From the UHGV virus genome UHGV-0108399: a stretch of 34,947 nucleotides of DNA. The stretch is one strand, 5' to 3'. Positions 21,936-34,947 of the stretch are shown here, in pieces. Under the pieces are notes generated by a model. It did no database searches, was not told where the DNA came from, and was given only the letters and a program-made list of their open reading frames with translations. The translations under genes and the position numbers were made by a program. Every line of letters starts with the position of its first letter. Position 1 is the first letter of the stretch. This DNA is from a virus.

Positions 21936-24101
21936 ATGGCCGACGAAAACAGACTCAATTCCATTCTGTGTAAGTTTGACGCAGACTGGATGGCGAGCGA
22001 TGAAGCCAGAACCGAGGCGACAAATGACCTGTATTTTAGCCGAGTGTCGCAATGGGATGACTGGCTATCAAACTACACCACCCTGCAATATCGCGGACAA
22101 TTCGATGTTGTTCGCCCGGTGGTCAGGAAGCTGGTCGCAGAGATGCGCCGGAACCCTATCGACGTTCTCTTCCGACCCAAAGATGGCGCTAATCCTGATG
22201 CAGCCGATGTGTTGATGGGGATGTATCGTACTGATATGCGCCATAACACGGCAAAGATTGCCGTTAACGTTGGCGTTCGTGAGCAGATAGAGTCCGGCGT
22301 TGGTGCATGGCGTCTGGTCACACAGTACGAAGACAACGACCCAACAAGCAACAATCAGGTAATCCGACGCCTGCCAATCCATGAAGCCTGCTCACACGTC
22401 ATATGGGACGCCAACAGCAAGCAGATGGATAAGAGCGACGCTAAGCACTGCACGGTGATTAACGCTTTGTCACGCAATGGCTGGAAAGAGTTCGCAGAGG
22501 ATTACGGTATTGATCCGGATACCTTGCCATCTTTCCAGAATCCGAACGATACATGGCTGTTCCCTTGGGTATCGAATGATGTCGTCTACGTCGCTGAGTA
22601 TTACGAGGTCGAAGAGAAGAAAGAGAAAGTCTTCATCTACCGCGACCCGCTGACAGGTGAGCCGGTCAGCTATTACCAGCAGGATATCAAAGACGTCATC
22701 GACGACCTGGCTAATCGTGGATTCATTAAGGTAGCAGAGCGCAAGGTGAAGCGTCGGCGTGTGTATAAGTCGATCATCACCTGTACGCAGATACTGAAAG
22801 ACCGCGAGAAGATAGCCGGAGAGCATATTCCAATCGTTCCAGTGTATGGTGAATGGTCATTCGCTGGTGACAAGGAGTGCTACGAAGGAGTGGTAAGGCT
22901 GACGAAAGACGGTCAACGCCTTCGTAACATGATCATGTCGTTCAACGCCGATATTGTTGCTCGTTCACCGAAGAAGAAACCTACCTTCTTCCCTGAGCAA
23001 ATCGAAGGCTACGAATACATGTACGGTGGAAATGATGACTATCCGTACTATCTGCAGAACAGGACCGATGAAAACGGTAACGACCTGCCGATTGGTCCAA
23101 TCTCCTACATGGAAAACCCTGAAGTGCCGCAAGCCAACGCTTACATGCTTGAGGCTGCCACCAACGCAGTGAAAGAGGTGGCTAGTCTTGGCGTTGATGC
23201 GCAGGCAGCAAACTCTCAGGTCGCTTTCGATACCGTCAATCAACTGAACATGCGGGCAGACCTTGAGACATACGTGTTTCAGGATAACCTGGCTACCGCA
23301 ATGCGACGTGATGGCGAGATTTATGCCTCAATGGTAAACGATATTTATGACGTTCCTCGTCATGTAACGCTGACACTTGAAGATGGAAGCGAGAAAGACG
23401 TTCAACTCTATGCGCAAGTTGTCGATTACCAGTCTGGCAATGTGGTCACACTCAACGACATTCGCGGTCGATATGAGTGCTATACAGACGTTGGGCCATC
23501 CTTCCAGAGTATGAAGGAACAGAACCGCGCAGAGATTCAGGAGTTGCTAACCAAGGTTCCGCAAGGTACTCCAGAGTTCCAGATGCTGATGCTGCAATAC
23601 TTCACGCTGCTTGACGGTAAAGGCGTCGAGATGATGCGAGAGTACGCGAACAAGCAACTGGTGATGATGGGGCTGAAGAAACCAGAAACACCTGAAGAGA
23701 TGGAGATGGTACAGCAGGCTCAACAGCAGCCGCAGCAGCCATCAGCAGAGCAAATTCAGGCGCAGGGCATCCTTCTGCAAGGTCAGGCTGAATTGCTCAA
23801 GGCAGAGAACCAACAGGCGCAGATTCAGGTTGAAGCCGCCAAGGTTGAAGCCCAAAACCAACTCAACGCCGCGAAGATTGCAGAAATCTTCAACAATATG
23901 GACCTCGACAAGCAGGCAGAACTGCGTGAGTACCTCAAGCTCGTAGGTCAATTCCAGCAACAGCGCAGCAAGGACGCTCGTGCTAACGCTGAGCTGCTTC
24001 TTAAAGATGCAGACCAGACTCATTCACAACGCATGGATTTCGCGAATCTTATGCGTCAAGTTCAAATCCCCTCCGGCGGAGTAGCCGAGACACCTCAATA
24101 A
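21936..24101 (+). CDS. Portal protein (P22 gp1-like)
   Basis: 721 aa with long Q-rich C-terminal helical region, as in the P22 portal; position after terL. Confidence 0.9.
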
Positions 24102-24114
24102 GAGAGAGTTAATC

Positions 24115-25026
24115 ATGGACCAAACCACCGACATTCAGGCTTCTGAAGAATTAACCCTGCCCGGCAATCATGCAGCGGCATCTGCTGATGGCTTAGTTGT
24201 CGATAATGCCAACGACAACGCAGGTCAGGAAGAAGGCTTCGAGATTGTCCTGAAAGACGATGAGAAACCAAAACAAGACCCGGCAACTAATGCTGAATTT
24301 GCCCGTCGCCGCATCGAACGCAAACGCCAGCGTGAGCTTGAGCAGCAGATGGAAGCGGTTAAGCGAGGGGAGTTGCCGGAGCACCTGCGGGTGAACCCTG
24401 AGTTACCAAAACAACCAGACCCTAACGATTATCTTTCCGAAGACGCACTGGCTAAGTACGACTATGACCAGAGCCGCGCACTGGCTGCCTTCCAGCAGGC
24501 AAACAGTGAATGGCAGATCAAGGCTATGGACGCACGAAGCCAGGCTGTCGCCGAGCAGGGCCGCAAAACTCAGGAGTTCACCCAGCAATCAGCGCAATAC
24601 GTCGAGGCAGCCCGTAAGCACTACGACGCAGCGGAAAAGCTCAATATCCCTGACTATCAGGAGAAAGAGGACGCATTCATGCAACTGGTGCCGCCAGCAG
24701 TCGGTGCCGACATCATGCGCCTCTTCCCGGAGAAATCCGCTGCACTCATGTATCACCTTGGTGCTAATCCTGAGAAAACACGCCAGTTGCTGGCGATGGA
24801 CGGGCAATCCGCGCTGATTGAACTCACTCGACTGTCAGAACGTTTAACTCTCAAGCCTCGAGCCAAACCTGTTTCAGAAGCCCCGCTACCTGATGAACCC
24901 ATTCAGGGACACGCTGTTGCTGCAAATATCTCTGCGATTGAAAAGCAGATGGAAGCGGCAGCAAACAAAGGGGATGTAGAGACGTACCGCAAGCTCAAGG
25001 CGCAACTGAATAAAGGAATTCGATAA
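24115..25026 (+). CDS. Scaffolding protein (P22 gp8-like)
   Basis: 303 aa, same length as P22 gp8; acidic and helical; C-terminus [12 protein letters not shown] resembles the coat-binding helix-turn-helix. Confidence 0.85.
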
Positions 25027-26321
25027 TGGCATTAAATGAAGGTCAACTGGTCACGTATGCTCTGGATGAAATCATCGAAACCGTCCAGAACCTGACGCCA
25101 ATGGCGTCCAAAGTGACAAAATACACCCCTCCGGCAGAATCCATGCAGCGTTCAAGCAACACCGTGTGGATGCCTGTTGAGCAGGAAGCGCCAACCCAGA
25201 CTGGCTGGGATTTAACTGGCAAAGCTACTGGGATTCTGGAACTCTCCGTGAAATGCAACATGGGTGATCCGGATAACGATTTCTTCGAGCTTCGTGCAGA
25301 TGACCTGCGTGATGAGCGTTCTTACCGTCGCCGCATCCAGGCATCCGCCAAAAAACTGGCGAATAACATTGAGTCAGCAATTGCCAAACAGGCAACCGAA
25401 ATGGGCTCACTTGTTGTTCACGATACCCGCGCAATTGGTCCATCTACTGGCCTGTCTGGCTGGGATTTTGTGTCTGATGCAGAGCGCCTGATGTTCTCCC
25501 GTGAGCTAAACCGCGATATGGGCATCAGTTACTTCCTGAACCCTGACGATTACCGCAAAGCAGGCCGCAACCTGGTAGATGGAGACATCTTTGGGCGCGT
25601 TCCTGAAGAAGCGTATCGCAACGGTACTATTCAGCGTCAGATTGCTGGCTTTGATGAAATTCTTCGCTCACCGAAACTTCCGGCAGTTACCAAGTCAACC
25701 GCTACTGGTGTAACTGTTTCTGGTGAGCAGAAGTTTAAGCCGCAGGCATACACCCTTGATACCGATGGTAACAAAGAGAACGTCGACAACCGTGTTGCAA
25801 CGGTGACCGTATCCTCCACCACCGGATTTAAGCGCGGCGACAAAATCAGCTTCACTGGTGTGAAATTCCTGTCTCAGATGGCGAAGAACGTGCTGACTGA
25901 TGACGCGACTTTCTCAATCACCCGTGTGATCGATGGTACTCACATCGAAATCACGCCGAAGCCGATTGCGCTTGATGACGCTTCACTGACAAAAGAAGAG
26001 AAGGCTTACGCTAACGTAAATACTTCTCTTGCTAATAACACTCCGGTAAACGTTCTGAACGTGGCAACAACCACCGCTAACGTGTTCTGGGCTGATGACT
26101 CAATCCGTCTGCTTTCTCAGCCGATCCCGGTAACCCATGAACTGTTTGCTGGCATGAAAACGTCTTCCTTCAGCATTCCAGGTATTGGTGTTAACGGCAT
26201 CTTCGCAACGCAGGGTGATATCAACACTCTGTCTGGTAAGTGCCGTATTGCTGTGTGGTATTCAGCATGTGCTGTACGACCAGAGGCAATTGGTGTTGGT
26301 CTGCCTAACCAGACCGCGTGA
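25026..26321 (+). CDS. Major coat protein (P22 gp5-like)
   Basis: 431 aa; extensive similarity to P22 coat protein throughout (MALNEGQ ... [10 protein letters not shown] ... IAVWY ... [13 protein letters not shown]). Confidence 0.9.
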
Positions 26322-26365
26322 TAACCAGAGGGAGCTTCGGCTCCCTTTTCTATCTGGAGACAAGC

Positions 26366-26614
26366 ATGACACACATGATCTTTCGTCATGGCGACATGAA
26401 GAAGTGGAAAGGCGTTGGCTACGACTTTGAAATCGTGAAAGCCGAAGAGCTTCAGGAATATCTGGATGCTGGTTGGTTTTCACATCCTGATGACCTTTTG
26501 AAGGATGTTGCAGAGCCAGAGCCAGAGCCAGAGCCAGAGCCAGAAGAAAAACAGCGTAAAAAGCCTGGTCGAAAACCTAAGGCGGCAGCAGATGAACCTG
26601 ACAACGAAGGGTGA
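26366..26614 (+). CDS. Small protein with (EP)5 linker and basic C-terminal tail (82 aa)
   Basis: GGAGA RBS before the ATG at 26366; folded-looking N-terminal region, [10 protein letters not shown] encoded by a hexanucleotide repeat, then [13 protein letters not shown]. Confidence 0.45.
26513..26542 (+). repeat. Perfect tandem hexanucleotide repeat (GAGCCA)x5
   Basis: Directly visible at 26513..26542; gives repeat-amino-acid artefacts in several reading frames of the ORF track (SQSQ, GSGS, WLWL). Confidence 0.9.
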
Positions 26615-27092
26615 TTTAGTTCTTGCGGCATTACGTAAGCTCGGTGTGGCATCAAATGCCACGTTAACCGATGTCGAACCGCAGTCTATGGAAGACGGCG
26701 TCAACGACCTTGAAATGATGATGGCTGAATGGCTTGGCGGTGATGCGTCACCTGGTATCAACGTTGGCTACATTTTTGCTGATGCAGATGTTGCTCCGGA
26801 TCCGGGCGATGAGCACGGTTTATCAAATAACGCTATCAATGCCGTCATTTTCAACCTTGCCTGCCGAATTGCTCCAGATTATGCGCTGGAAGCGTCTGCA
26901 AAACTTATAACCACTGCCAGATACGGGAAAGAGCGACTCGTCAAACTGTCTGCAATGGACAGGGCAAAAGCAGCTAAATGTAAGTCCGGTTATCCAAACC
27001 GTATGCCTGTTGGTAGTGGTAACCAGTTTGCGAAGTGGAATGGTTGGAATTACTTCCACCGAAAGGAACCTTGCGATAACGGGAGCGAATAA
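26592..27092 (+). CDS. Head-completion / portal-closure protein (P22 gp4-like)
   Basis: 166 aa from [33 protein letters not shown]...; the track ORF start 26505 is a frame extension through the repeat. Confidence 0.8.
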
Positions 27093-29668: not shown

Positions 29669-30364
29669 ATGTTATATGCATTTACGCTGGGCAGAAAACT
29701 GCGCGGCGAGGAACCTTATTGCCCTGAAAAAGGCGGGAAAGGTGGCAGTTCTGATAAAAGCGCAAAGTATGCCGCAGAAGCTCAGAAGTATGCCGCAGAC
29801 CTGCAGAATAAGCAGTGGCAGACGATCATGAAAAACCTTGCTCCGTTCACGCCACTCGCTCAGCAGTACGTATCACAATTGCAGAATCTTTCCTCTCTTC
29901 AGGGGCAAGGTCAGGCACTTAACCAGTATTACAACTCTCAGCAGTACAAAGATCTTGCTGGTCAGGCTCGCTATCAGAGTCTGGCTGCAGCGGAAGCAAC
30001 AGGTGGATTGGGTTCCACTGCAACCGGTAATCAGTTAGCAACAATCGCACCAACGCTTGGTCAGCAGTGGCTGTCTGGTCAGATGAACAACTACCAGAAT
30101 CTGGCAAATATTGGTCTTGGCGCACTGCAAGGTCAGGCAAACGCCGGGCAGACATATGCCAACAACATGAGTCAGATTTCGCAGCAAAGTGCGGCTCTTG
30201 CCGCTGCTAATGCCAATAAACCATCAGGTCTTCAGACAGCAATTAGCGGCGGAGCTTCAGGGGCTATGACTGGCGCTGCTCTTGGCTCTATTGTTCCCGG
30301 ACTTGGCACTGGATTAGGTGCGGCAATTGGCGGCGGACTTGGCCTGCTTGGATCGTTGTTTTAA
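29669..30364 (+). CDS. Ejection protein (P22 gp7-like)
   Basis: 231 aa; Q/N/G-rich low-complexity region and glycine-rich hydrophobic C-terminus, typical of P22 gp7. Confidence 0.75.
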   Translation: MLYAFTLGRKLRGEEPYCPEKGGKGGSSDKSAKYAAEAQKYAADLQNKQWQTIMKNLAPFTPLAQQYVSQLQNLSSLQGQGQALNQYYNSQQYKDLAGQARYQSLAAAEATGGLGSTATGNQLATIAPTLGQQWLSGQMNNYQNLANIGLGALQGQANAGQTYANNMSQISQQSAALAAANANKPSGLQTAISGGASGAMTGAALGSIVPGLGTGLGAAIGGGLGLLGSLF

Positions 30365-30373
30365 GGGGTAATC

Positions 30374-31705
30374 ATGGCTACTTGGCAAGGATCAAATGGC
30401 GGATTGTTGGCTGGTATCGGCGGCGTCAACTCAAACGCTCCGAGCGTAAATGACATCGGCAATACGCTTCAGCTTATCAGGCAGAACAATGATATTGAGC
30501 GTTCAGGCGCTAACAATGTTGGGCTGACTGCTTTGCAAGGCCTTTCAGGTATTGCGGGGGTGTTTCAGCAGGAAAAGCAGGCTCAGCGGCAGAAAGAATT
30601 TCAGCAGGCATACGCTAATGCTTATGCTTCTGGTGATCGCGGAGCTTTGCGTCAGTTGGCTACTCAATATCCAGACCAGATTGAATCCGTTCGTAAAGGC
30701 ATGGGATTCATCGATGAAGAGCAGCGTAATTCTATCGGCACCTTAGCGGCTGGCGCACGCCTTGCGTCATCGTCTCCAGAAGCAATGCAATCATGGCTGC
30801 AAAACAACGCCGGTGAGTTAGCTCGTGTTGGCGTTAATCCTCATGACGTCGCTCAGATGTACCAACAGAACCCGCGGCAGTTCGGCGAATTTGTCGATCA
30901 CCTGGGGATGAACAGTCTCGGGCCAGAAAAATACTTTGACCTACAGGATAAAATGCAGGGTATCCAGGTTACCATGCGCGGTCAGGATCTGGATTCGCAA
31001 ACCGCCGCTCGGAATCAGGCAATCACAATGCGCGGACAAGATATCCAGGCGAATTTAGGTCAGCAGCGCATTAATCTGGACGCAGAAACAAACCGCATTA
31101 ACAACGAAAATAAGCGCCTTGACCGGATGCTATCAGCGGAAACTAACGACCTGAAGCGCCAGGAAATACAGAGCCGCATAGCAGCCAACAACCAGCAGTT
31201 GCAGCAGAAGCAGCAAGCGCTAAATGATGGCTACAAAGACGGCATCAACACCCTCACAACCAGCATGTTCACTCTGAACGATATCGTTAGTTCTCCTTCA
31301 CTTAAGAGCATTACAGGCTTACGTGGAGTAATCCCCAACGTTCCAGGCTCACAGGCTGCAGACACTCAGGCACGACTTGATACCTTTAAATCACAAGCAT
31401 ACCTGACAGCGGTTCAGGCCATGCGAGGCATGGGCGCACTTTCTGATGCCGAGGGCAAAAAGCTCGACCAGGCTGTTGGTTCGCTGCAGAACTCGCAGAG
31501 CGAGGAGTCCTTTCGTCGCAACGCTGGCGTCATCCTGAACACGCTCAACCAGAAGCGTAATGAGGCGGTTGGTAAGTACGTTCAGCAAAACGGTATCAAG
31601 CGAGTGGAAGCGCCTCAGGCTTCTATAGATTACCTGAAGCAGCACCCCGAGCTGTCAATCGACTTCATTAATCGCTACGGATATCTTCCATCTTTGGGGC
31701 AGTAA
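30374..31705 (+). CDS. Ejection protein (P22 gp20-like)
   Basis: 443 aa; position and composition match P22 gp20. Confidence 0.75.
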   Translation: MATWQGSNGGLLAGIGGVNSNAPSVNDIGNTLQLIRQNNDIERSGANNVGLTALQGLSGIAGVFQQEKQAQRQKEFQQAYANAYASGDRGALRQLATQYPDQIESVRKGMGFIDEEQRNSIGTLAAGARLASSSPEAMQSWLQNNAGELARVGVNPHDVAQMYQQNPRQFGEFVDHLGMNSLGPEKYFDLQDKMQGIQVTMRGQDLDSQTAARNQAITMRGQDIQANLGQQRINLDAETNRINNENKRLDRMLSAETNDLKRQEIQSRIAANNQQLQQKQQALNDGYKDGINTLTTSMFTLNDIVSSPSLKSITGLRGVIPNVPGSQAADTQARLDTFKSQAYLTAVQAMRGMGALSDAEGKKLDQAVGSLQNSQSEESFRRNAGVILNTLNQKRNEAVGKYVQQNGIKRVEAPQASIDYLKQHPELSIDFINRYGYLPSLGQ

Positions 31706-34099
31706 ATGGCTAATTACCGTGATTTGTTAGAGCAGGCTGGCGCACGTTACGGTGTGCCAGAAGGGTTGATGACTGCACTGGGTGCCAAGGAGTCTTCTTA
31801 CGACCCTGCCGCAGTAAGCTCCGCCGGGGCTGTAGGATTGACTCAGGTCATGCCTGGGACATGGCGTGATATGGGTTATACCGATGAGCAAATGCAAAAC
31901 CCCGAATATCAGGCTGACGCTGGCGCGCGCTATCTGGCAAAGATGTACCAGCAGTTTGGTAACTGGCGTGACGCTCTTCAGGCTTATCACGACGGTCCCG
32001 GCAACGTTATGAAGGCAAAGCGTGGTGAATATACGCCAGGACCTGAAGGCCGCGGTTACGTTGATGATCGCTTTGCTCAATGGGCGGGTGACCCGGTGAC
32101 AGACTCAACAGTCGAACAGCGCGCCACCTCTGCAAAGGTACATCCTCAGCAAGACCCTAACAACCCGTTTGCACAACTGGAAGTACAGTCATCCGAACAA
32201 GTATCGGCATCAGGTGTGCAGTCAGACCCAAATAATCCATTTGCTCAGATTGAGCAGCAGGCAGCCAGTCAGCAGCCACCTCAACCCGTAAGTTCTGTCG
32301 CACCGAAACCTGTTCAGCAACAAGGCGGAATAATGTCTGACCTTGGTAATGGACTTGCTGAAACCGGGCGCGGCTTACTACAGGCAGGAATCAACGTGGC
32401 GAACATACCTGCTGAACTCACTGATGCTGTAACAAGCGCGGCGGCTTGGGCTGGCGGTAAACTCGGCATTGGCGATGGTACATATCAACCAGCACCACGA
32501 TTAACAACGCAGGGATTAGAGCAGGACTTTGGCCTTCAGCAAGGAGCGCTGACTCCACAAACGACAGAGGGAAGGGTATTTGCTGAAGCATTGCCTTACC
32601 TCACTCCTGCCGGCGTTGAGAGAGCGGCAACACAGGCACCAACACTTGCTGGTCGAATTGCTCAGGGTGCAACTCGCCTTCTCGCTGAAAACGCAGTTGG
32701 ATCACTTGCTGCAAACAGTGTGAAAGATGATGCGGAAGCACTAGCCACCGACTTAGGCGTTGGCGTTCTGGCTGGCGGAGCTATTAACGCTGCCGGACGT
32801 GGATTAGGTGCTGCTTATCGTGGAGTTCGTGGTGCGATAGCGCCAGAAGCGCAACAGGCTATCAGGTTTGCAGAGCGTGAAGGAGTGCCTCTGCACACCA
32901 CAGACCTGTTACAACCTACTTCCCGCGTCGGAAAAATGGCGCAGACTACAGCAGAAAATATCCCTCTGGCTGGCACAAGCGGAATGAGAGCAACGCAACA
33001 GGAAGCGAGAAGCCAGTTGGTGCAGAGATTTGCTGATAAATTCGGTGAGTATGATCCAGCTGTTGTTATTGAAAGCCTTAAAGCGAAAACATCAGGAATT
33101 CGTCGTGCTGCAGGTAATCGACTTGAACAGGTTCAGAATGCAATGGCGGGAGTCAACATTCAGCCTGTGCGAGCAATTCAGCAGATTGATACTGAGATAT
33201 CTAACCTGCAGAAGCTTGGTAAGGTCGCTGATAACGAGACGATTTCAAAACTTCAATCCTATCGTGATGAGCTTATTCGCAATGCTGGTCATGATGGTCC
33301 GGTAAATCTGGATTTGAAGCAATTAAGCGATCTGCGCAGCCAGTTCAGAATGGACGTGAAGGGTGAGCGACCAGTGTTACCAAATCGTTCCGATGCCGCC
33401 ATACAGCGCGTTTACAAGGCGATGACCGACGATATCAATGGTGCCATTGGTCATAATCTTGGCAACGATACTCTCCGTAAATATCAGCAGGCCAATGCCG
33501 TCTACGCTGACGAAGCGGCGAAACTAAAGAATACCAGGCTGAAGAATGTTCTCATGAAAGGCGACCTGACACCGGAAATTGTCAACAACATGCTATTCAG
33601 CAAGAACAAATCGGAAATTAAGACGCTGTATAACTCAGTTGGTCGTGTTGGCAGGGCGCAAATGCGCAATGGCATCATTGGAAAGGCGATGGAGAAATCT
33701 GGCGGATCCCCTGACCAGTTCCTTCGGCAGCTTAACATCCTGCAAAACCAGACTGGCATCACATTTAAGGGGCAGGATGCTGCTTATCTGAAAGGATTGA
33801 AAAATTACCTTCAGTCCACTCAGCAGGCAGCAAAAGCGGCAGTAACAACACCCACAGGGCAGCAAACCATCCCGTTCATTATCGGGTATGGGACGGCAAT
33901 GAACCCGGCGACAACTGGCGCAGCAGTAAGCTACGGACTTCTTACTCGCGCCTATGAGAGCGAACCATTCAGAAATGCAATGCTCAGAATGGCAAACACC
34001 CCACGCGGATCAACAGCCTTTGAGAAAGCAATGCAGCAGGCACAAAAGGCAATTAACGCTCTGACGCAGGGGGCTAAGTCTGATTCGTTGTCAGAATAG
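31706..34099 (+). CDS. Ejection protein (gp16 position) with N-terminal soluble lytic transglycosylase domain
   Basis: 797 aa; N-terminal SLT motif (GAKESSYDPAAVSSAGAVGLTQVMPGTWRDMGY); long A/G/Q-rich extended region; internal DPNNPFAQ duplication. Confidence 0.75.
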   Translation: MANYRDLLEQAGARYGVPEGLMTALGAKESSYDPAAVSSAGAVGLTQVMPGTWRDMGYTDEQMQNPEYQADAGARYLAKMYQQFGNWRDALQAYHDGPGNVMKAKRGEYTPGPEGRGYVDDRFAQWAGDPVTDSTVEQRATSAKVHPQQDPNNPFAQLEVQSSEQVSASGVQSDPNNPFAQIEQQAASQQPPQPVSSVAPKPVQQQGGIMSDLGNGLAETGRGLLQAGINVANIPAELTDAVTSAAAWAGGKLGIGDGTYQPAPRLTTQGLEQDFGLQQGALTPQTTEGRVFAEALPYLTPAGVERAATQAPTLAGRIAQGATRLLAENAVGSLAANSVKDDAEALATDLGVGVLAGGAINAAGRGLGAAYRGVRGAIAPEAQQAIRFAEREGVPLHTTDLLQPTSRVGKMAQTTAENIPLAGTSGMRATQQEARSQLVQRFADKFGEYDPAVVIESLKAKTSGIRRAAGNRLEQVQNAMAGVNIQPVRAIQQIDTEISNLQKLGKVADNETISKLQSYRDELIRNAGHDGPVNLDLKQLSDLRSQFRMDVKGERPVLPNRSDAAIQRVYKAMTDDINGAIGHNLGNDTLRKYQQANAVYADEAAKLKNTRLKNVLMKGDLTPEIVNNMLFSKNKSEIKTLYNSVGRVGRAQMRNGIIGKAMEKSGGSPDQFLRQLNILQNQTGITFKGQDAAYLKGLKNYLQSTQQAAKAAVTTPTGQQTIPFIIGYGTAMNPATTGAAVSYGLLTRAYESEPFRNAMLRMANTPRGSTAFEKAMQQAQKAINALTQGAKSDSLSE

Positions 34100-34262
34100 C
34101 TTTGCAAACACCAGAAATGTGCAAAAACCAAATATATAGAACGCAATATTCAACTGATCTTTTTGCATAGACTCATCTCATAGTTAACAAATCATAACTT
34201 ACATTAATGCAATGCCGGGCAAGTTGCATCTTGTTCCGCATTGCTACGTCTGGAGAAAATTA

Positions 34263-34947
34263 AATGACAGACATTACAGCCAATGTTGTAGTGAGTATGC
34301 CTTCGCAACTCTTCACTATGGCGCGTTCTTTTAAAGCAGTAGCCAACGGCAAAATTTATATCGGAAAAATTGACACTGACCCGGTAAGTCCAGAAAACCA
34401 GATTCAGGTTTATGTAGAGAACGAAGACGGCTCTCATGTTCCTGTTTCGCAGCCAATCATCATTAACGCTGCTGGATATCCGGTATATAACGGGCAGATT
34501 GCCAAATTCGTAACTGTTCAAGGCCATTCTATGGCTGTATATGATGCATATGGCACTCAGCAGTTCTATTTCCCTAATGTGCTGAAGTATGACCCGGATC
34601 AGCTACGGCAGCAGTTAGAAGACCCGGATGGTGCTAAAAAATATCCCGAATTGCAGATTGCACGATGGCGTGATGACAAAGATGTTCGCGGTTGGGGGGC
34701 TATCAGTGATGGAATAACTGACGCTACTGAGGCATTCTCTAACGCAGGCTATAGAATGTTTGTTCCTGATGGCGATTTTGCAGTAAATACTCTCGAAGTT
34801 GATGTATCTTCTGCTCGAGGTATTGGGAGGATTGTTGCAGATAATGGCTCTCTTATTTCCGTTTCTCGTCTACTTGAAACTGACAAACTTGCGCAGAGAA
34901 AAATGATGGAACCTTTTTTTGGTTTTCAGGGAGAAACAAACACAGAA
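34263..34947 (+). CDS. Tailspike protein, N-terminal part (P22 gp9-type head-binding domain + start of divergent receptor-binding domain); truncated by window end
   Basis: Hand-translated: [41 protein letters not shown] ... [15 protein letters not shown] ... NVLKYDPDQ closely matches the P22 tailspike head-binding domain; downstream sequence is not P22-like; no stop before the window end; GGAGA RBS. Confidence 0.85.

What the first reader, a model, noticed from the sequence alone, without database searches (positions are those of the whole stretch)
31706..34099. Third ejection protein carries an N-terminal lytic transglycosylase domain and an internal DPNNPFAQ duplication
At the position of P22 gp16 the phage encodes a 797-aa protein beginning with an SLT-type domain, followed by low-complexity A/G/Q-rich sequence. 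The motif DPNNPFAQ is duplicated about 70 nt apart (about 32153..32176 and 32224..32247) with different codons, suggesting selection at protein level. This would make the ejection protein a peptidoglycan-cutting internal virion protein, analogous to T7 gp16.
Basis: partly seen in the sequence, partly recalled or inferred. Interest (0 to 1): 0.4.

Follow-up and report, generated by a model that had tools for sequence, protein, structure and literature searches.

The report
Wall-cutting phage ejection protein with docking motifs
The third DNA-ejection protein of this P22-like phage carries a cell-wall-cutting domain like the one on phage T7's gp16, and its duplicated DPNNPFAQ peptide is one form of a widespread paired motif that always occurs with a conserved tail on the preceding ejection protein, which suggests it is where the two proteins dock.

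Summary
ORF 31706..34099 (+) encodes 797 aa directly after the P22 gp7 and gp20 homologues and before the tailspike.

- **SLT domain (aa 1-145):** Pfam SLT E=9e-25. Glu29 aligns with the catalytic Glu478 of Slt70 and Glu37 of T7 gp16. The AF2 model matches only lytic transglycosylases.
- **Core (aa 207-797):** 96% identical to Sf6 gp13, which has no SLT.
- **Motif:** Six of eight codons differ, all synonymously. Across diverged relatives the motifs keep pN=0 while the spacer diverges.

The pair is the local form of a widespread paired motif, N-x-F-[DA]-Q-[FYLI]-[DE]. It sits tandem at the N-terminus in many phage proteins, and flanks the SLT in Sortsnevirus-like phages. In both scan directions it co-occurs with a conserved roughly 31-aa C-terminal tail on the upstream gp20-like protein. 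The gp20 C-half and the gp16 head move as one mosaic cassette.

Most likely the SLT opens peptidoglycan during entry, and the paired motif docks gp16 onto the gp20 tail. The docking step is inferred. The SLT part is a new member of a known kind and is already annotated in RefSeq. I found no paper describing the motif-tail pairing.

The parts
29669..30364 (+). First ejection protein (P22 gp7 homologue), 231 aa
   Evidence: Pfam P22_gp7 E=4.4e-131; phrog_598 'DNA ejection'
30374..31705 (+). Second ejection protein (P22 gp20 homologue), 443 aa. The N-half is shared with Sf6 gp12. The C-half (from about 30910) belongs to the same mosaic cassette as the SLT head.
   Evidence: Pfam Inj_translocase E=2.2e-66; mosaic breakpoints
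31610..31702 (+). Conserved C-terminal tail of gp20, 'APQASIDYLKQHPELSIDFINRYGYLPSLGQ'. This is the proposed docking partner of the paired motif.
   Evidence: The tail family (consensus AP.AAI.YLK.NP.L...F.AKYGYLP) is found upstream of about 104 of 107 proteins that start with the motif. It was present in 13/13 Lederbergvirus-type loci with an NxF[AD]Q head and 0/61 with other heads or no assignable third protein. In the reverse scan, about 58 of 59 tails are followed by a paired motif.
31706..34099 (+). Third ejection protein, 797 aa: SLT head, paired motif, Q/P linker and Sf6 gp13-type core
   Evidence: ORF; phrog_770 'DNA transfer protein' aa 108-797, E=3.5e-238; 96.6% nt identity to an unannotated stretch of phage IME10
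31706..32140 (+). Lytic transglycosylase (SLT, GH23 family 1) domain, aa 1-145
   Evidence: Pfam SLT E=9.4e-25; Slt70 1qsa E=2.4e-9; AF2 pLDDT 87-98 for aa 1-110 and about 72 for aa 111-145; Foldseek top hits are all lytic transglycosylases; 28% identity to T7 gp16-N
31790..31792 (+). Codon GAG for Glu29, the predicted catalytic acid (E-S motif)
   Evidence: Aligns with Slt70 Glu478 and T7 gp16 Glu37. Invariant in 93 SLT homologues and in 52/52 copies of this module.
32153..32182 (+). Motif copy 1, DPNNPFAQLE (aa 150-159). It is positionally homologous to the post-SLT 'GNxFDQF' motif of other genera.
32183..32224 (+). Variable 14-aa spacer between the motif copies
   Evidence: pN 0.28-0.56 between lineages, against 0 for the motifs in seven of eight comparisons; its length is constant
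32225..32254 (+). Motif copy 2, DPNNPFAQIE (aa 174-183)
32255..32323 (+). Q/P-rich linker that ends the mobile head module. The recombination junction lies at aa 206.
   Evidence: Identity to Sf101 drops after ORF nt 618, and identity to Sf6 rises from about nt 620-720
32324..34096 (+). Core of the ejection protein (aa 207-797), Sf6 gp13 / P22 gp16 family. By homology it forms the channel across the cytoplasmic membrane.
   Evidence: 96% aa identity to Sf6 gp13 over 590 aa; 78% to BTP1 gp16; no similarity to T7 gp16-C

Best explanation
The gene encodes the third ejection (E) protein of a P22-like (Lederbergvirus) phage. It is built from a mobile 206-aa head fused to an Sf6 gp13-type core.

The first part of the head (aa 1-145) is a family-1 lytic transglycosylase. 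After the protein is expelled from the capsid into the periplasm, this domain would cut glycan strands with Glu29 as the catalytic acid. That would open the peptidoglycan mesh where the gp20 tube has to cross it, as the N-domain of T7 gp16 does.

The second part of the head (aa 146-206) is predicted to be disordered and carries two copies of N-P-F-A-Q-[LI]-E. I propose that these two copies are a paired short linear docking motif that binds the conserved C-terminal tail of gp20 (APQASIDYLKQHPELSIDFINRYGYLPSLGQ). This would tether the gp16 core to the foot of the gp20 periplasmic channel at the cytoplasmic membrane, where the core completes the DNA conduit.

Shown here: the domain identities, the catalytic residues, purifying selection, the mosaic structure and the motif-tail co-occurrence. 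Inferred: enzymatic activity, the timing of ejection, and physical motif-tail binding.

My confidence is about 0.85 that the SLT is a functional entry-associated muralytic domain, and about 0.5 that the motif pair docks on the gp20 tail.
For: **SLT domain.**
- Pfam SLT E=9.4e-25.
- E29 aligns with Slt70 E478 and T7 gp16 E37.
- The invariant E-S, G-L-x-Q and A-Y-x-x-G positions are all kept.
- The AF2 model and Foldseek return only lytic transglycosylases plus the T7 core protein 7eyb_I.
- pN/pS is about 0.05-0.18, and E29 is kept in 52/52 copies.

**Ejection-protein identity.**
- Synteny is gp7-gp20-X-tailspike.
- The core is 96% identical to Sf6 gp13.

**The motif is functional.**
- All 6 differences between the two copies are synonymous.
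- The motifs are invariant (pN=0 in seven of eight comparisons) while the spacer diverges (pN 0.28-0.56), with a constant 24-aa period, in relatives down to 71% identity.

**The motif family.**
- Two copies flank the SLT in Sortsne-, Murray-, Skarpretter- and Hungariovirus phages and in Kosakonia phages, and the two copies co-vary within each phage.
- Two tandem copies sit at the extreme N-terminus of SLT-less third E proteins (L128, Shewanella ZP9).
- At least 120 viral contigs carry it; 92 of 120 have exactly two copies.

**The partner.**
- The upstream ORFs of 107 such contigs form one BLAST cluster, and conservation rises toward a C-terminal tail.
- Tail presence is 13/13 with this head type and 0/61 with other heads or no assignable third protein in Lederbergvirus-type loci.
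- In the reverse scan from the tail, about 58 of 59 contigs have the paired motif next.
- Tail variants track motif variants in the window lineage, C130_2 and Kc166B.
- The gp20 C-half and the gp16 head diverge together as one cassette (94-96% and 93-94%) inside more diverged flanks (66% and 74%).
- The same head works with procapsid proteins that are only 26-40% identical.

**Literature.**
- P22 needs a cognate gp16/gp20 pair (PMC10461980).
- The gp20 C-terminal 'plinth' is proposed to template gp16. AF3 places the extreme gp20 C-terminus differently when gp16 residues 1-205 are included, and gp16 is probably ejected before gp20 (bioRxiv 10.64898/2026.09.03.749273).
- In T7, gp16-N carries the transglycosylase and a 'molecular tape' that binds gp15 (PMC8954989).
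Against: - No enzymatic or virion-proteomic data exist for this protein.
- P22-like virions already have a reported muralytic activity in gp4 (PMC5380687), so the SLT may be dispensable under laboratory conditions, as in T7.
- The tail and the motif are encoded within about 100 nt of each other in most phages, so co-occurrence among close relatives is partly plain linkage.
- The motif is far more conserved than the bodies of the gp20-like proteins. That would also fit a conserved host partner.
- AF2 gave the motif region low confidence (pLDDT below 50), and no complex model could be computed here.
- The motif-tail pair is absent from P22 and Sf6 themselves, which use other head and tail types, so the published structural work does not address it directly.
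Confidence: 0.6

Rival explanations
1. The paired motif binds a conserved host component in the periplasm or at the cytoplasmic membrane, not the gp20 tail. Candidates would be a Tol/Sec-associated protein such as YajC, or peptidoglycan itself. This is how colicin translocation domains use short disordered epitopes.
For: The motif is nearly invariant (NxFDQFD) across very diverse viral contigs whose proteins are otherwise unalignable, as expected for a conserved pocket. The region is predicted to be disordered. P22 entry needs host YajC, and free gp16 diffuses in the envelope (bioRxiv 10.64898/2026.09.03.749273).
Against: This does not explain why a conserved tail on the upstream phage protein accompanies the motif in both scan directions. 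It also does not explain why tail variants track motif variants. Phages of the same host (E. coli) use clearly different head types.
Confidence: 0.15
2. The conserved gp20 tail and gp16 head are kept for reasons tied to the gene junction, not because the two peptides bind each other. The reason could be translational coupling or a conserved 'linker' that promotes homologous recombination between mosaic modules.
For: The two elements straddle a tightly coupled gene junction; gaps of -1, 0 or +1 nt dominate. Mosaic breakpoints cluster near them.
Against: Conservation is at the amino-acid level with saturated synonymous sites. The reading-frame relation at the junction varies. In the window lineage 435 nt of SLT separate the tail from the motifs. 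In Sortsnevirus-like phages the SLT separates the two motif copies. Yet all elements are retained.
Confidence: 0.08
3. The paired motif is a virion-incorporation signal, comparable to the T4 capsid-targeting sequence. It would direct the protein into procapsids or position it in the portal/tail lumen.
For: The motif is usually at the extreme N-terminus (MANxFDQFD). E proteins must be packaged and positioned for exit.
Against: The identical head (99%) serves phages whose portal, scaffold, coat and gp4 are only 34%, 31%, 26% and 40% identical. Sf6 gp16 assembles into P22 particles yet is non-functional without its cognate gp20 (PMC10461980). In the window the motif is internal, not N-terminal.
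Confidence: 0.12
4. The SLT domain is catalytically inert or serves only a structural role (for example as 'wings' on the channel), or it acts at lysis, not at entry.
For: Three related loci carry Q47G in the G-L-x-Q motif. T7 gp16 transglycosylase activity is needed only under special conditions (PMC8954989). P22 and Sf6 manage without such a domain.
Against: All catalytic-motif residues are kept in the window protein and in 49/52 relatives, under strong purifying selection. The domain is fused to a protein that leaves the virion at entry. Phages of this type normally carry a separate lysis cassette (not examined in this window).
Confidence: 0.1

Closest known systems
Phage T7 gp16 (internal virion protein D)
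   Same: It is the largest ejection protein and carries an N-terminal family-1 lytic transglycosylase (28% identity, E=2e-10; catalytic E37 aligns with E29). The domain is followed by an extended segment that binds the preceding tube-forming protein: the 'molecular tape' on gp15 in T7 (PMC8954989), and the proposed paired motif on gp20 here.
   Different: The rest of the protein is unrelated and shorter (797 against 1318 aa). The post-SLT segment has no sequence similarity to the T7 tape. P22-like E proteins are not arranged in a core stack.
Sf6 gp13 / P22 gp16 (third ejection protein of P22-like phages)
   Same: Same gene position. The core is 96% (Sf6) or 78% (BTP1, P22-type) identical over 590 aa. 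By homology it forms the cytoplasmic-membrane channel that docks on gp20.
   Different: Sf6 and P22 have short, unrelated heads (about 75 and 55 aa) with no SLT and no NxF[AD]Q pair. Their gp20 proteins end in different tails (…SNFSSLWGD and …SYTSKSGIQFTVE).
Sf101 gp13 and the third E proteins of Sortsnevirus, Murrayvirus, Skarprettervirus and Hungariovirus
   Same: Sf101 has the same SLT head (99% identical). The other genera have an SLT domain 57-67% identical, with the shared signature ALQAYHDGPGN, at the same gene position and with two motif copies.
   Different: Sf101 joins the head to a different 700-aa core. In the other genera the two motif copies flank the SLT (one at the extreme N-terminus) and are not tandem after it.
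E. coli Slt70 catalytic domain (PDB 1qsa/1qte)
   Same: Fold and catalytic motifs.
   Different: Slt70 is a cellular exo-lytic enzyme with large superhelical U and L domains. Here the catalytic domain stands alone on a virion protein, and the third motif reads AYHDG where Slt70 has AYNAG.
P22 gp4 and other virion-associated lysins (K1E/K1-5 gp15-like lysozyme, phiKMV gp36)
   Same: Virion-borne peptidoglycan hydrolases used at entry. The muralytic module sits on different E proteins in different podophages (PMC5380687, PMC8954989).
   Different: gp4 is a neck/adaptor protein with no recognisable SLT domain. This phage has a gp4 homologue as well (26592-27092), so it may carry two muralytic activities.

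Membership tests
Family-1 lytic transglycosylase (SLT domain, PF01464 / GH23) | Profile match above the curated threshold | tested here: met
   PF01464 86.9 bits against a cut-off of 21.3, E=9.4e-25, aa 7-110
Family-1 lytic transglycosylase (SLT domain, PF01464 / GH23) | Catalytic Glu in the E-S motif at the end of the second helix | tested here: met
   E29-S30 align with Slt70 E478-S479 and T7 gp16 E37-S38; invariant in 93 homologues
Family-1 lytic transglycosylase (SLT domain, PF01464 / GH23) | Motifs G-L-x-Q and A-Y-N-x-G | tested here: met
   GLTQ (aa 44-47) and AYHDG (aa 93-97). G44, Q47, Y94 and G97 are invariant. N95 is replaced by H in this whole phage subfamily.
Family-1 lytic transglycosylase (SLT domain, PF01464 / GH23) | Lysozyme-like all-alpha fold | tested here: met
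   AF2 pLDDT 87-98 for aa 1-110 and about 72 for aa 111-145. The Foldseek pdb top 50 are all Slt/LtgA/MltE/MltC/MltF plus T7 core 7eyb_I.
Family-1 lytic transglycosylase (SLT domain, PF01464 / GH23) | Cleaves MurNAc-GlcNAc bonds with formation of 1,6-anhydroMurNAc | not testable with these tools
   Needs a zymogram and muropeptide analysis
P22 gp16 / Sf6 gp13 ejection ('DNA transfer') protein | Gene position after the gp7 and gp20 homologues in a P22-type virion module | tested here: met
P22 gp16 / Sf6 gp13 ejection ('DNA transfer') protein | Sequence homology of the core | tested here: met
   phrog_770 E=3.5e-238; 96% identity to Sf6 gp13 over 590 aa
P22 gp16 / Sf6 gp13 ejection ('DNA transfer') protein | Packaged in the virion and released at infection | not testable with these tools
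   Inferred from near-identity to Sf6 gp13. Needs virion mass spectrometry.
T7 gp16-type internal virion protein D | N-terminal transglycosylase domain | tested here: met
   28% identity, E=2e-10; phrog_342 E=5.7e-23
T7 gp16-type internal virion protein D | Homologous C-terminal body (about 1100 aa) | tested here: not met
   BLASTP of the core against T7 gp16 aa 231-1318 gave best E=1.4. The protein works like T7 gp16 in its head but is not a member of that family.
Paired N-x-F-[DA]-Q-[FYLI]-[DE] head with gp20-type C-terminal tail (grouping proposed here, not a curated family) | Two motif copies in the N-terminal region of the protein that follows a gp20-like gene | tested here: met
   NPFAQLE and NPFAQIE at aa 153-159 and 177-183. 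Copy 1 aligns with the post-SLT GNxFDQF of other genera.
Paired N-x-F-[DA]-Q-[FYLI]-[DE] head with gp20-type C-terminal tail (grouping proposed here, not a curated family) | Upstream protein ends in the tail AI.YLK..P.L...F..(K/R)YGYLP | tested here: met
   The window gp20 ends in SIDYLKQHPELSIDFINRYGYLPSLGQ
Paired N-x-F-[DA]-Q-[FYLI]-[DE] head with gp20-type C-terminal tail (grouping proposed here, not a curated family) | Physical binding of motif to tail | not testable with these tools

The most novel reading that the evidence does not exclude
The DPNNPFAQ pair and the gp20 C-terminal tail are the two halves of an ancient, widespread and so far undescribed docking module. This module would couple consecutive ejection proteins in many short-tailed phages (at least 165 viral contigs found here, most with no annotated function). 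Muralytic and other domains (SLT, an endolysin-like domain, an unknown 'GNIDIHNRP' domain) have repeatedly been inserted between or next to the two motif copies. If so, the module would be the specificity determinant behind the cognate gp16/gp20 requirement seen experimentally in P22/Sf6 hybrids. It would also be a sequence tag for finding ejection proteins in unannotated phage genomes.
Probability: 0.45. Interest if true: 0.65.

Novelty: new member of a known kind. Interest (0 to 1): 0.45.

Why it matters
[quoted passage not shown] This window, 70 of 5426 complete E. coli genomes, phages Sf101, IME10, Huey and Dewey, and at least four further phage genera, plus unclassified Kosakonia phages, with P22-type ejectosomes all show otherwise. 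The T7-style layout, with a muralytic head on the last ejection protein, recurs on an unrelated core.

**The gp16-gp20 interface.** The comparative data point to specific short elements: a roughly 31-aa gp20 tail and a paired 7-aa motif. These may be the interface between gp20 and gp16. Genetics (PMC10461980) and in situ cryo-EM (bioRxiv 10.64898/2026.09.03.749273) show that this contact must exist but have not resolved it. Peptide binding, motif mutation and tail swapping could now test it directly.

**Annotation.** The motif-tail signature could also help to annotate ejection proteins in metagenomic phages. Seven of ten motif-bearing proteins tested had no PHROG match.

Tried and rejected
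- **Word-indexed protein search.** It returned only partial copies of the protein and generic SLT proteins, never the full-length ejection proteins. Family breadth was therefore taken from the phage records and IMG/VR instead.
- **The search for related loci with a gp20 N-domain alignment.** It failed because there was no conserved stretch. The gp7 anchor returned only close relatives (at least 89% identical). That set still served as a sample of head types.
- **Casjens & Thuman-Commike 2011.** This paper may already mention SLT-type gp16 heads, but it is not held. Whether specialists have noted the SLT before therefore remains unverified.
- **A colicin TolB-box resemblance (ENNPW against PNNPF).** I considered this from memory and dropped it. 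The NNP part is specific to this lineage, whereas the family consensus is NxFDQFD.
- **The motif as a portal/scaffold/coat signal.** Judged unlikely, because the same head serves two very different procapsid sets.
- **The ~90-aa 'GNIDIHNRP' insert.** No Pfam or PHROG match was found.
- **The antisense ORF 31727..32080 (117 aa).** Treated as spurious, because it lies inside the strongly conserved SLT coding sequence.
- **L061 figures.** Values for regions after aa 145 are invalid because of a 3-aa indel and were ignored.
Full report
**Observation**

The window carries a P22-like (Lederbergvirus-type) virion module. In order it encodes portal, scaffold, coat, gp4, gp10, the gp26 needle, gp14, gp7 (29669-30364), gp20 (30374-31705), the ORF in question (31706-34099, 797 aa), and the start of a tailspike at 34265.

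The DPNNPFAQ octapeptide occurs at aa 150-157 (nt 32153-32176) and aa 174-181 (nt 32225-32248). The copies are 24 aa apart. Six of the eight codons differ and every difference is synonymous. The pattern N.F[AD][QE][FYLIV] occurs nowhere else in the six-frame translation of the window.

**The N-terminal domain is a lytic transglycosylase**

- Pfam SLT matches aa 7-110 at E=9.4e-25.
- A phmmer search of PDB sequences finds Slt70 at E=2.4e-9, with Glu29 aligned to the catalytic Glu478.
- BLASTP against the T7 gp16 N-terminus gives 28% identity (E=2e-10), with Glu29 on Glu37. A review names Glu37 as the T7 catalytic residue (PMC8954989).
- In a 93-sequence alignment E29, S30, G44, Q47, Y94 and G97 are invariant.
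- In an AF2 model aa 1-110 have pLDDT 87-98, aa 111-145 about 72, and aa 145-215 fall below 50.
- Foldseek against the PDB returns only lytic transglycosylases (Slt, Slt70, LtgA, MltE/C/F) and the T7 core chain 7eyb_I.

**The rest of the protein**

Residues 207-797 are 96% identical to Sf6 gp13 and 78% identical to the P22-type gp16 of BTP1. They match phrog_770 'DNA transfer protein' and show no similarity to the body of T7 gp16. The protein therefore belongs to the P22 gp16/Sf6 gp13 family and has a T7-like head. It is not a member of the T7 gp16 family.

**Mosaic structure**

- ORF nt 1-618 (aa 1-206) are 99.5% identical to Sf101 gene 13, whose product continues into an unrelated 700-aa core.
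- From about nt 676 the ORF is 94.5% identical to Sf6 gene 13, whose product has a different 75-aa head without an SLT.
- IMG/VR holds the same head on at least three kinds of core, and on the Sf6-type core with an extra ~90-aa insert (797, 911, 836 and 886 aa).
- The unit that differs from Sf6 runs from mid-gp20 (about 30910) to the linker of the target (32318).
- In loci L054-L056 the gp20 C-half and the SLT are 94-96% and 93-94% identical to the window, while the gp20 N-half (66-68%) and the core (72-74%) are much more diverged.

The gp20 C-half and the gp16 head therefore travel together as one cassette.

**The duplicated motif is under selection**

In 52 copies of the head, both motif copies and the 24-aa period are retained in all but one truncated copy. 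This holds down to 71% identity (DPDNPFAQIE / DPSNPFAQIE). Against four diverged relatives the motifs show pN=0, except 0.10 for motif 1 of L057, at pS 0.3-1.0. The 14-aa spacer between them shows pN 0.28-0.56, which is higher than the SLT itself (0.015-0.13). The duplication is therefore old and both copies are maintained.

**The motif belongs to a wide family**

- **Flanking the SLT.** The third E proteins of Sortsnevirus IME279, Murrayvirus IME_EC2, Skarpretter, Hungariovirus C130_2 and Kosakonia phages carry an SLT 57-67% identical to this one. In them the SLT is flanked by two copies of N-x-F-[DA]-[QE]-[FY]. The first copy is at the extreme N-terminus (MANFFDQFDQ). The second lies about 20 aa after the SLT, where it aligns with copy 1 of the window protein.
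- **Co-variation.** The two copies co-vary within each phage: NFFDQFD/NFFDQFD, NMFAQYA/NLFAEYA, FNFAATFG/NKFASQFG.
- **Without an SLT.** SLT-less third E proteins start with two tandem copies. Examples are contig L128 (MANFFDQFDE-12 aa-NFFDQFDE) and Shewanella phage ZP9 (MANPFDQFDAQQENPFDQFD).
- **Breadth.** Of these, 92 have exactly two strict copies, mostly 10-20 aa apart, on proteins of about 375-2500 aa. Seven of ten tested had no PHROG match and two hit phrog_770.
- **Inserted domains.** Domains found between the two copies include the SLT, an endolysin-like domain (L213, phrog_3513) and an unknown ~90-aa 'GNIDIHNRP…' domain.
- **Literature.** No paper in the held library contains 'FDQFD' in a phage context.

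**The partner**

- In 107 of the 120 contigs a same-strand ORF ends within a few nucleotides of the motif protein's ATG. The C-terminal 220 aa of 101 of them form a single BLAST cluster together with the gp20 C-termini of the window, IME279, ZP9, Sf6 and BTP1.
- Within that cluster, similarity rises toward a terminal segment with consensus AP.AAI.YLK.NP.L...F.AKYGYLP. The window gp20 ends in APQASIDYLKQHPELSIDFINRYGYLPSLGQ.
- Among 74 Lederbergvirus-type loci sampled through gp7, the tail is present in 13/13 with an NxF[AD]Q head and in 0/61 with other heads or no assignable third protein.
- Each other head type has its own tail: the Sf6 head with …SNFSSLWGD on two different gp20 bodies, the P22 head with …SYTSKSGIQFTVE, and the 'MAYSRE' head with …ELISKYLGGQ, the last also in Sodalis phiSG1.
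- The reverse scan, starting from FKAKYGYLP, found 62 contigs, 45 of them new. In about 58 of 59 evaluable cases the next ORF begins with the paired motif or an obvious variant (NPFDKYD, NPYDQFD, NPFDELE).
- Deviant motifs go with deviant tails in the window lineage, C130_2 and Kc166B.
- The same head (99%) and gp20 (98%) serve the window phage and Sf101, although their portal, scaffold, coat and gp4 are only 34%, 31%, 26% and 40% identical. This argues against a procapsid partner.

**Fit with experiments on P22**

P22 hybrids that carry only Sf6 gp16 or only Sf6 gp20 are dead, while the pair works. Sf6 gp16 is still packaged, so gp16 and gp20 'must interact during DNA delivery' (PMC10461980).

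In situ cryo-EM shows a gp20 dodecamer whose barrel crosses the peptidoglycan and whose C-terminal plinth is proposed to template gp16. AF3 places the extreme gp20 C-terminus differently when gp16 residues 1-205 are included. The authors favour ejection of gp16 before gp20 (bioRxiv 10.64898/2026.09.03.749273).

In T7, gp16-N carries the transglycosylase followed by a 'molecular tape' that binds gp15 (PMC8954989).

**Proposed mechanism**

1. Inferred: the protein leaves the capsid early.
2. The domain is shown and its action is inferred: the SLT head cuts glycan strands where the gp20 barrel must pass.
3. Co-occurrence and co-variation are shown and binding is inferred: the paired motif in the disordered linker docks on the gp20 tail at the foot of the channel.
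4. By homology: the Sf6 gp13-type core completes the conduit through the cytoplasmic membrane.

**Novelty**

RefSeq already names this protein 'lytic transglycosylase domain-containing protein' in 70 of 5426 complete E. coli genomes. The Sf101 GenBank record calls it 'transglycosylase'. The SLT is therefore a new member of a known kind, a virion-associated lysin on an internal protein.

Two points in the literature are worth noting. It contradicts a general statement in a 2022 review. It is also not discussed in the Sf101 genome paper.

I did not find the paired-motif/gp20-tail association described in any held paper. It is the more interesting lead.

Noticed in passing
L123:2222-4219 (Salmonella phage VSe13, MT932212.1): The gp16 homologue is annotated 'lytic transglycosylase domain-containing protein', but it is Sf6 gp13-like (head MAKAWKDV…) with no SLT domain by Pfam or NCBIfam. 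The name was probably carried over from SLT-bearing relatives that share the core.
   Followed up: yes
L056:4001-6661; also L218, L220, L227, L246, L352, L356, L364, L368, L370: An unknown ~90-aa domain ('GNIDIHNRPVVKNPDGSISTVRS…IPTVSDDGRIMSDDEAI…TGKHLG.F') sits after motif 2 in one window-lineage variant, and between the two motif copies in several other phages. It has no Pfam or PHROG match.
   Followed up: partly
L056 and two other loci among L012-L062: Q47 of the G-L-x-Q motif, invariant in 93 SLT homologues, is replaced by Gly in 3 of 52 copies of the head. These copies may have reduced or lost activity.
   Followed up: no
L125-L204 (Lederbergvirus-type contigs); L207 (Sodalis phiSG1): Every head type of the third ejection protein has its own matching gp20 C-terminal tail: Sf6 head with …SNFSSLWGD, P22 head with …SYTSKSGIQFTVE, and 'MAYSRE' head with …ELISKYLGGQ. 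The mosaic boundary is therefore offset into the end of gene 20 and does not lie at the gene border.
   Followed up: partly
L146:8031-10154: Another head type has a different tandem pair, 'GLPEGFVLDEQP … QLPDGFVLDSQP', and its own gp20 tail. Paired short motifs may be a general design of these heads.
   Followed up: no
L005:4908-8058 (Kosakonia phage Kc166B): The third ejection protein is split into a 310-aa protein (SLT plus motifs) and a 734-aa core protein. This could be a real split or a sequencing frameshift.
   Followed up: no
L213:2768-5677: In this contig the domain between the two NxFDQFD copies is an endolysin-like module (phrog_3513, E=2.5e-13), not an SLT. Different muralytic domains have been inserted at the same place.
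   Followed up: partly
window 31706-32140 compared with L004, L006, L008, L010, L005: The SLT domain is 57-67% identical between the window and phages of other genera, while their gp7, gp20 and gp16 cores are only 23-46% identical. Either the SLT is much more constrained or it was exchanged horizontally more recently.
   Followed up: no
window 21936-27092 compared with L208 (Sf101): The window's portal, scaffold, coat and gp4 are P22-type and only 26-40% identical to those of Sf101. gp10, gp14, gp7, gp20 and the SLT head are 90-99% identical. There is a sharp mosaic boundary between gp4 and gp10.
   Followed up: partly
L003 (phage IME10, NC_019501.1 31064-33457): The closest full-length relative (96.6% nt identity) has no annotated feature over this gene in the GenBank or RefSeq records.
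   Followed up: no
window 34100-34264: Only about 165 nt separate the gene-16 homologue from the tailspike start (34265). There is no immI region (sieA/mnt/arc/ant) such as P22 has here. The 107-aa antisense ORF 34204..34527 overlaps the tailspike head-binding domain and is probably spurious.
   Followed up: no
L206:5244-8069 (Pseudomonas phage PfAn1): The third protein after the gp7- and gp20-like genes is annotated 'putative peptidoglycan transglycosylase'. Its head (MAEFPKSFDD…) is different and its N-terminal muralytic domain is more distant. Muralytic heads on P22-type third ejection proteins therefore extend beyond enterobacterial phages.
   Followed up: no
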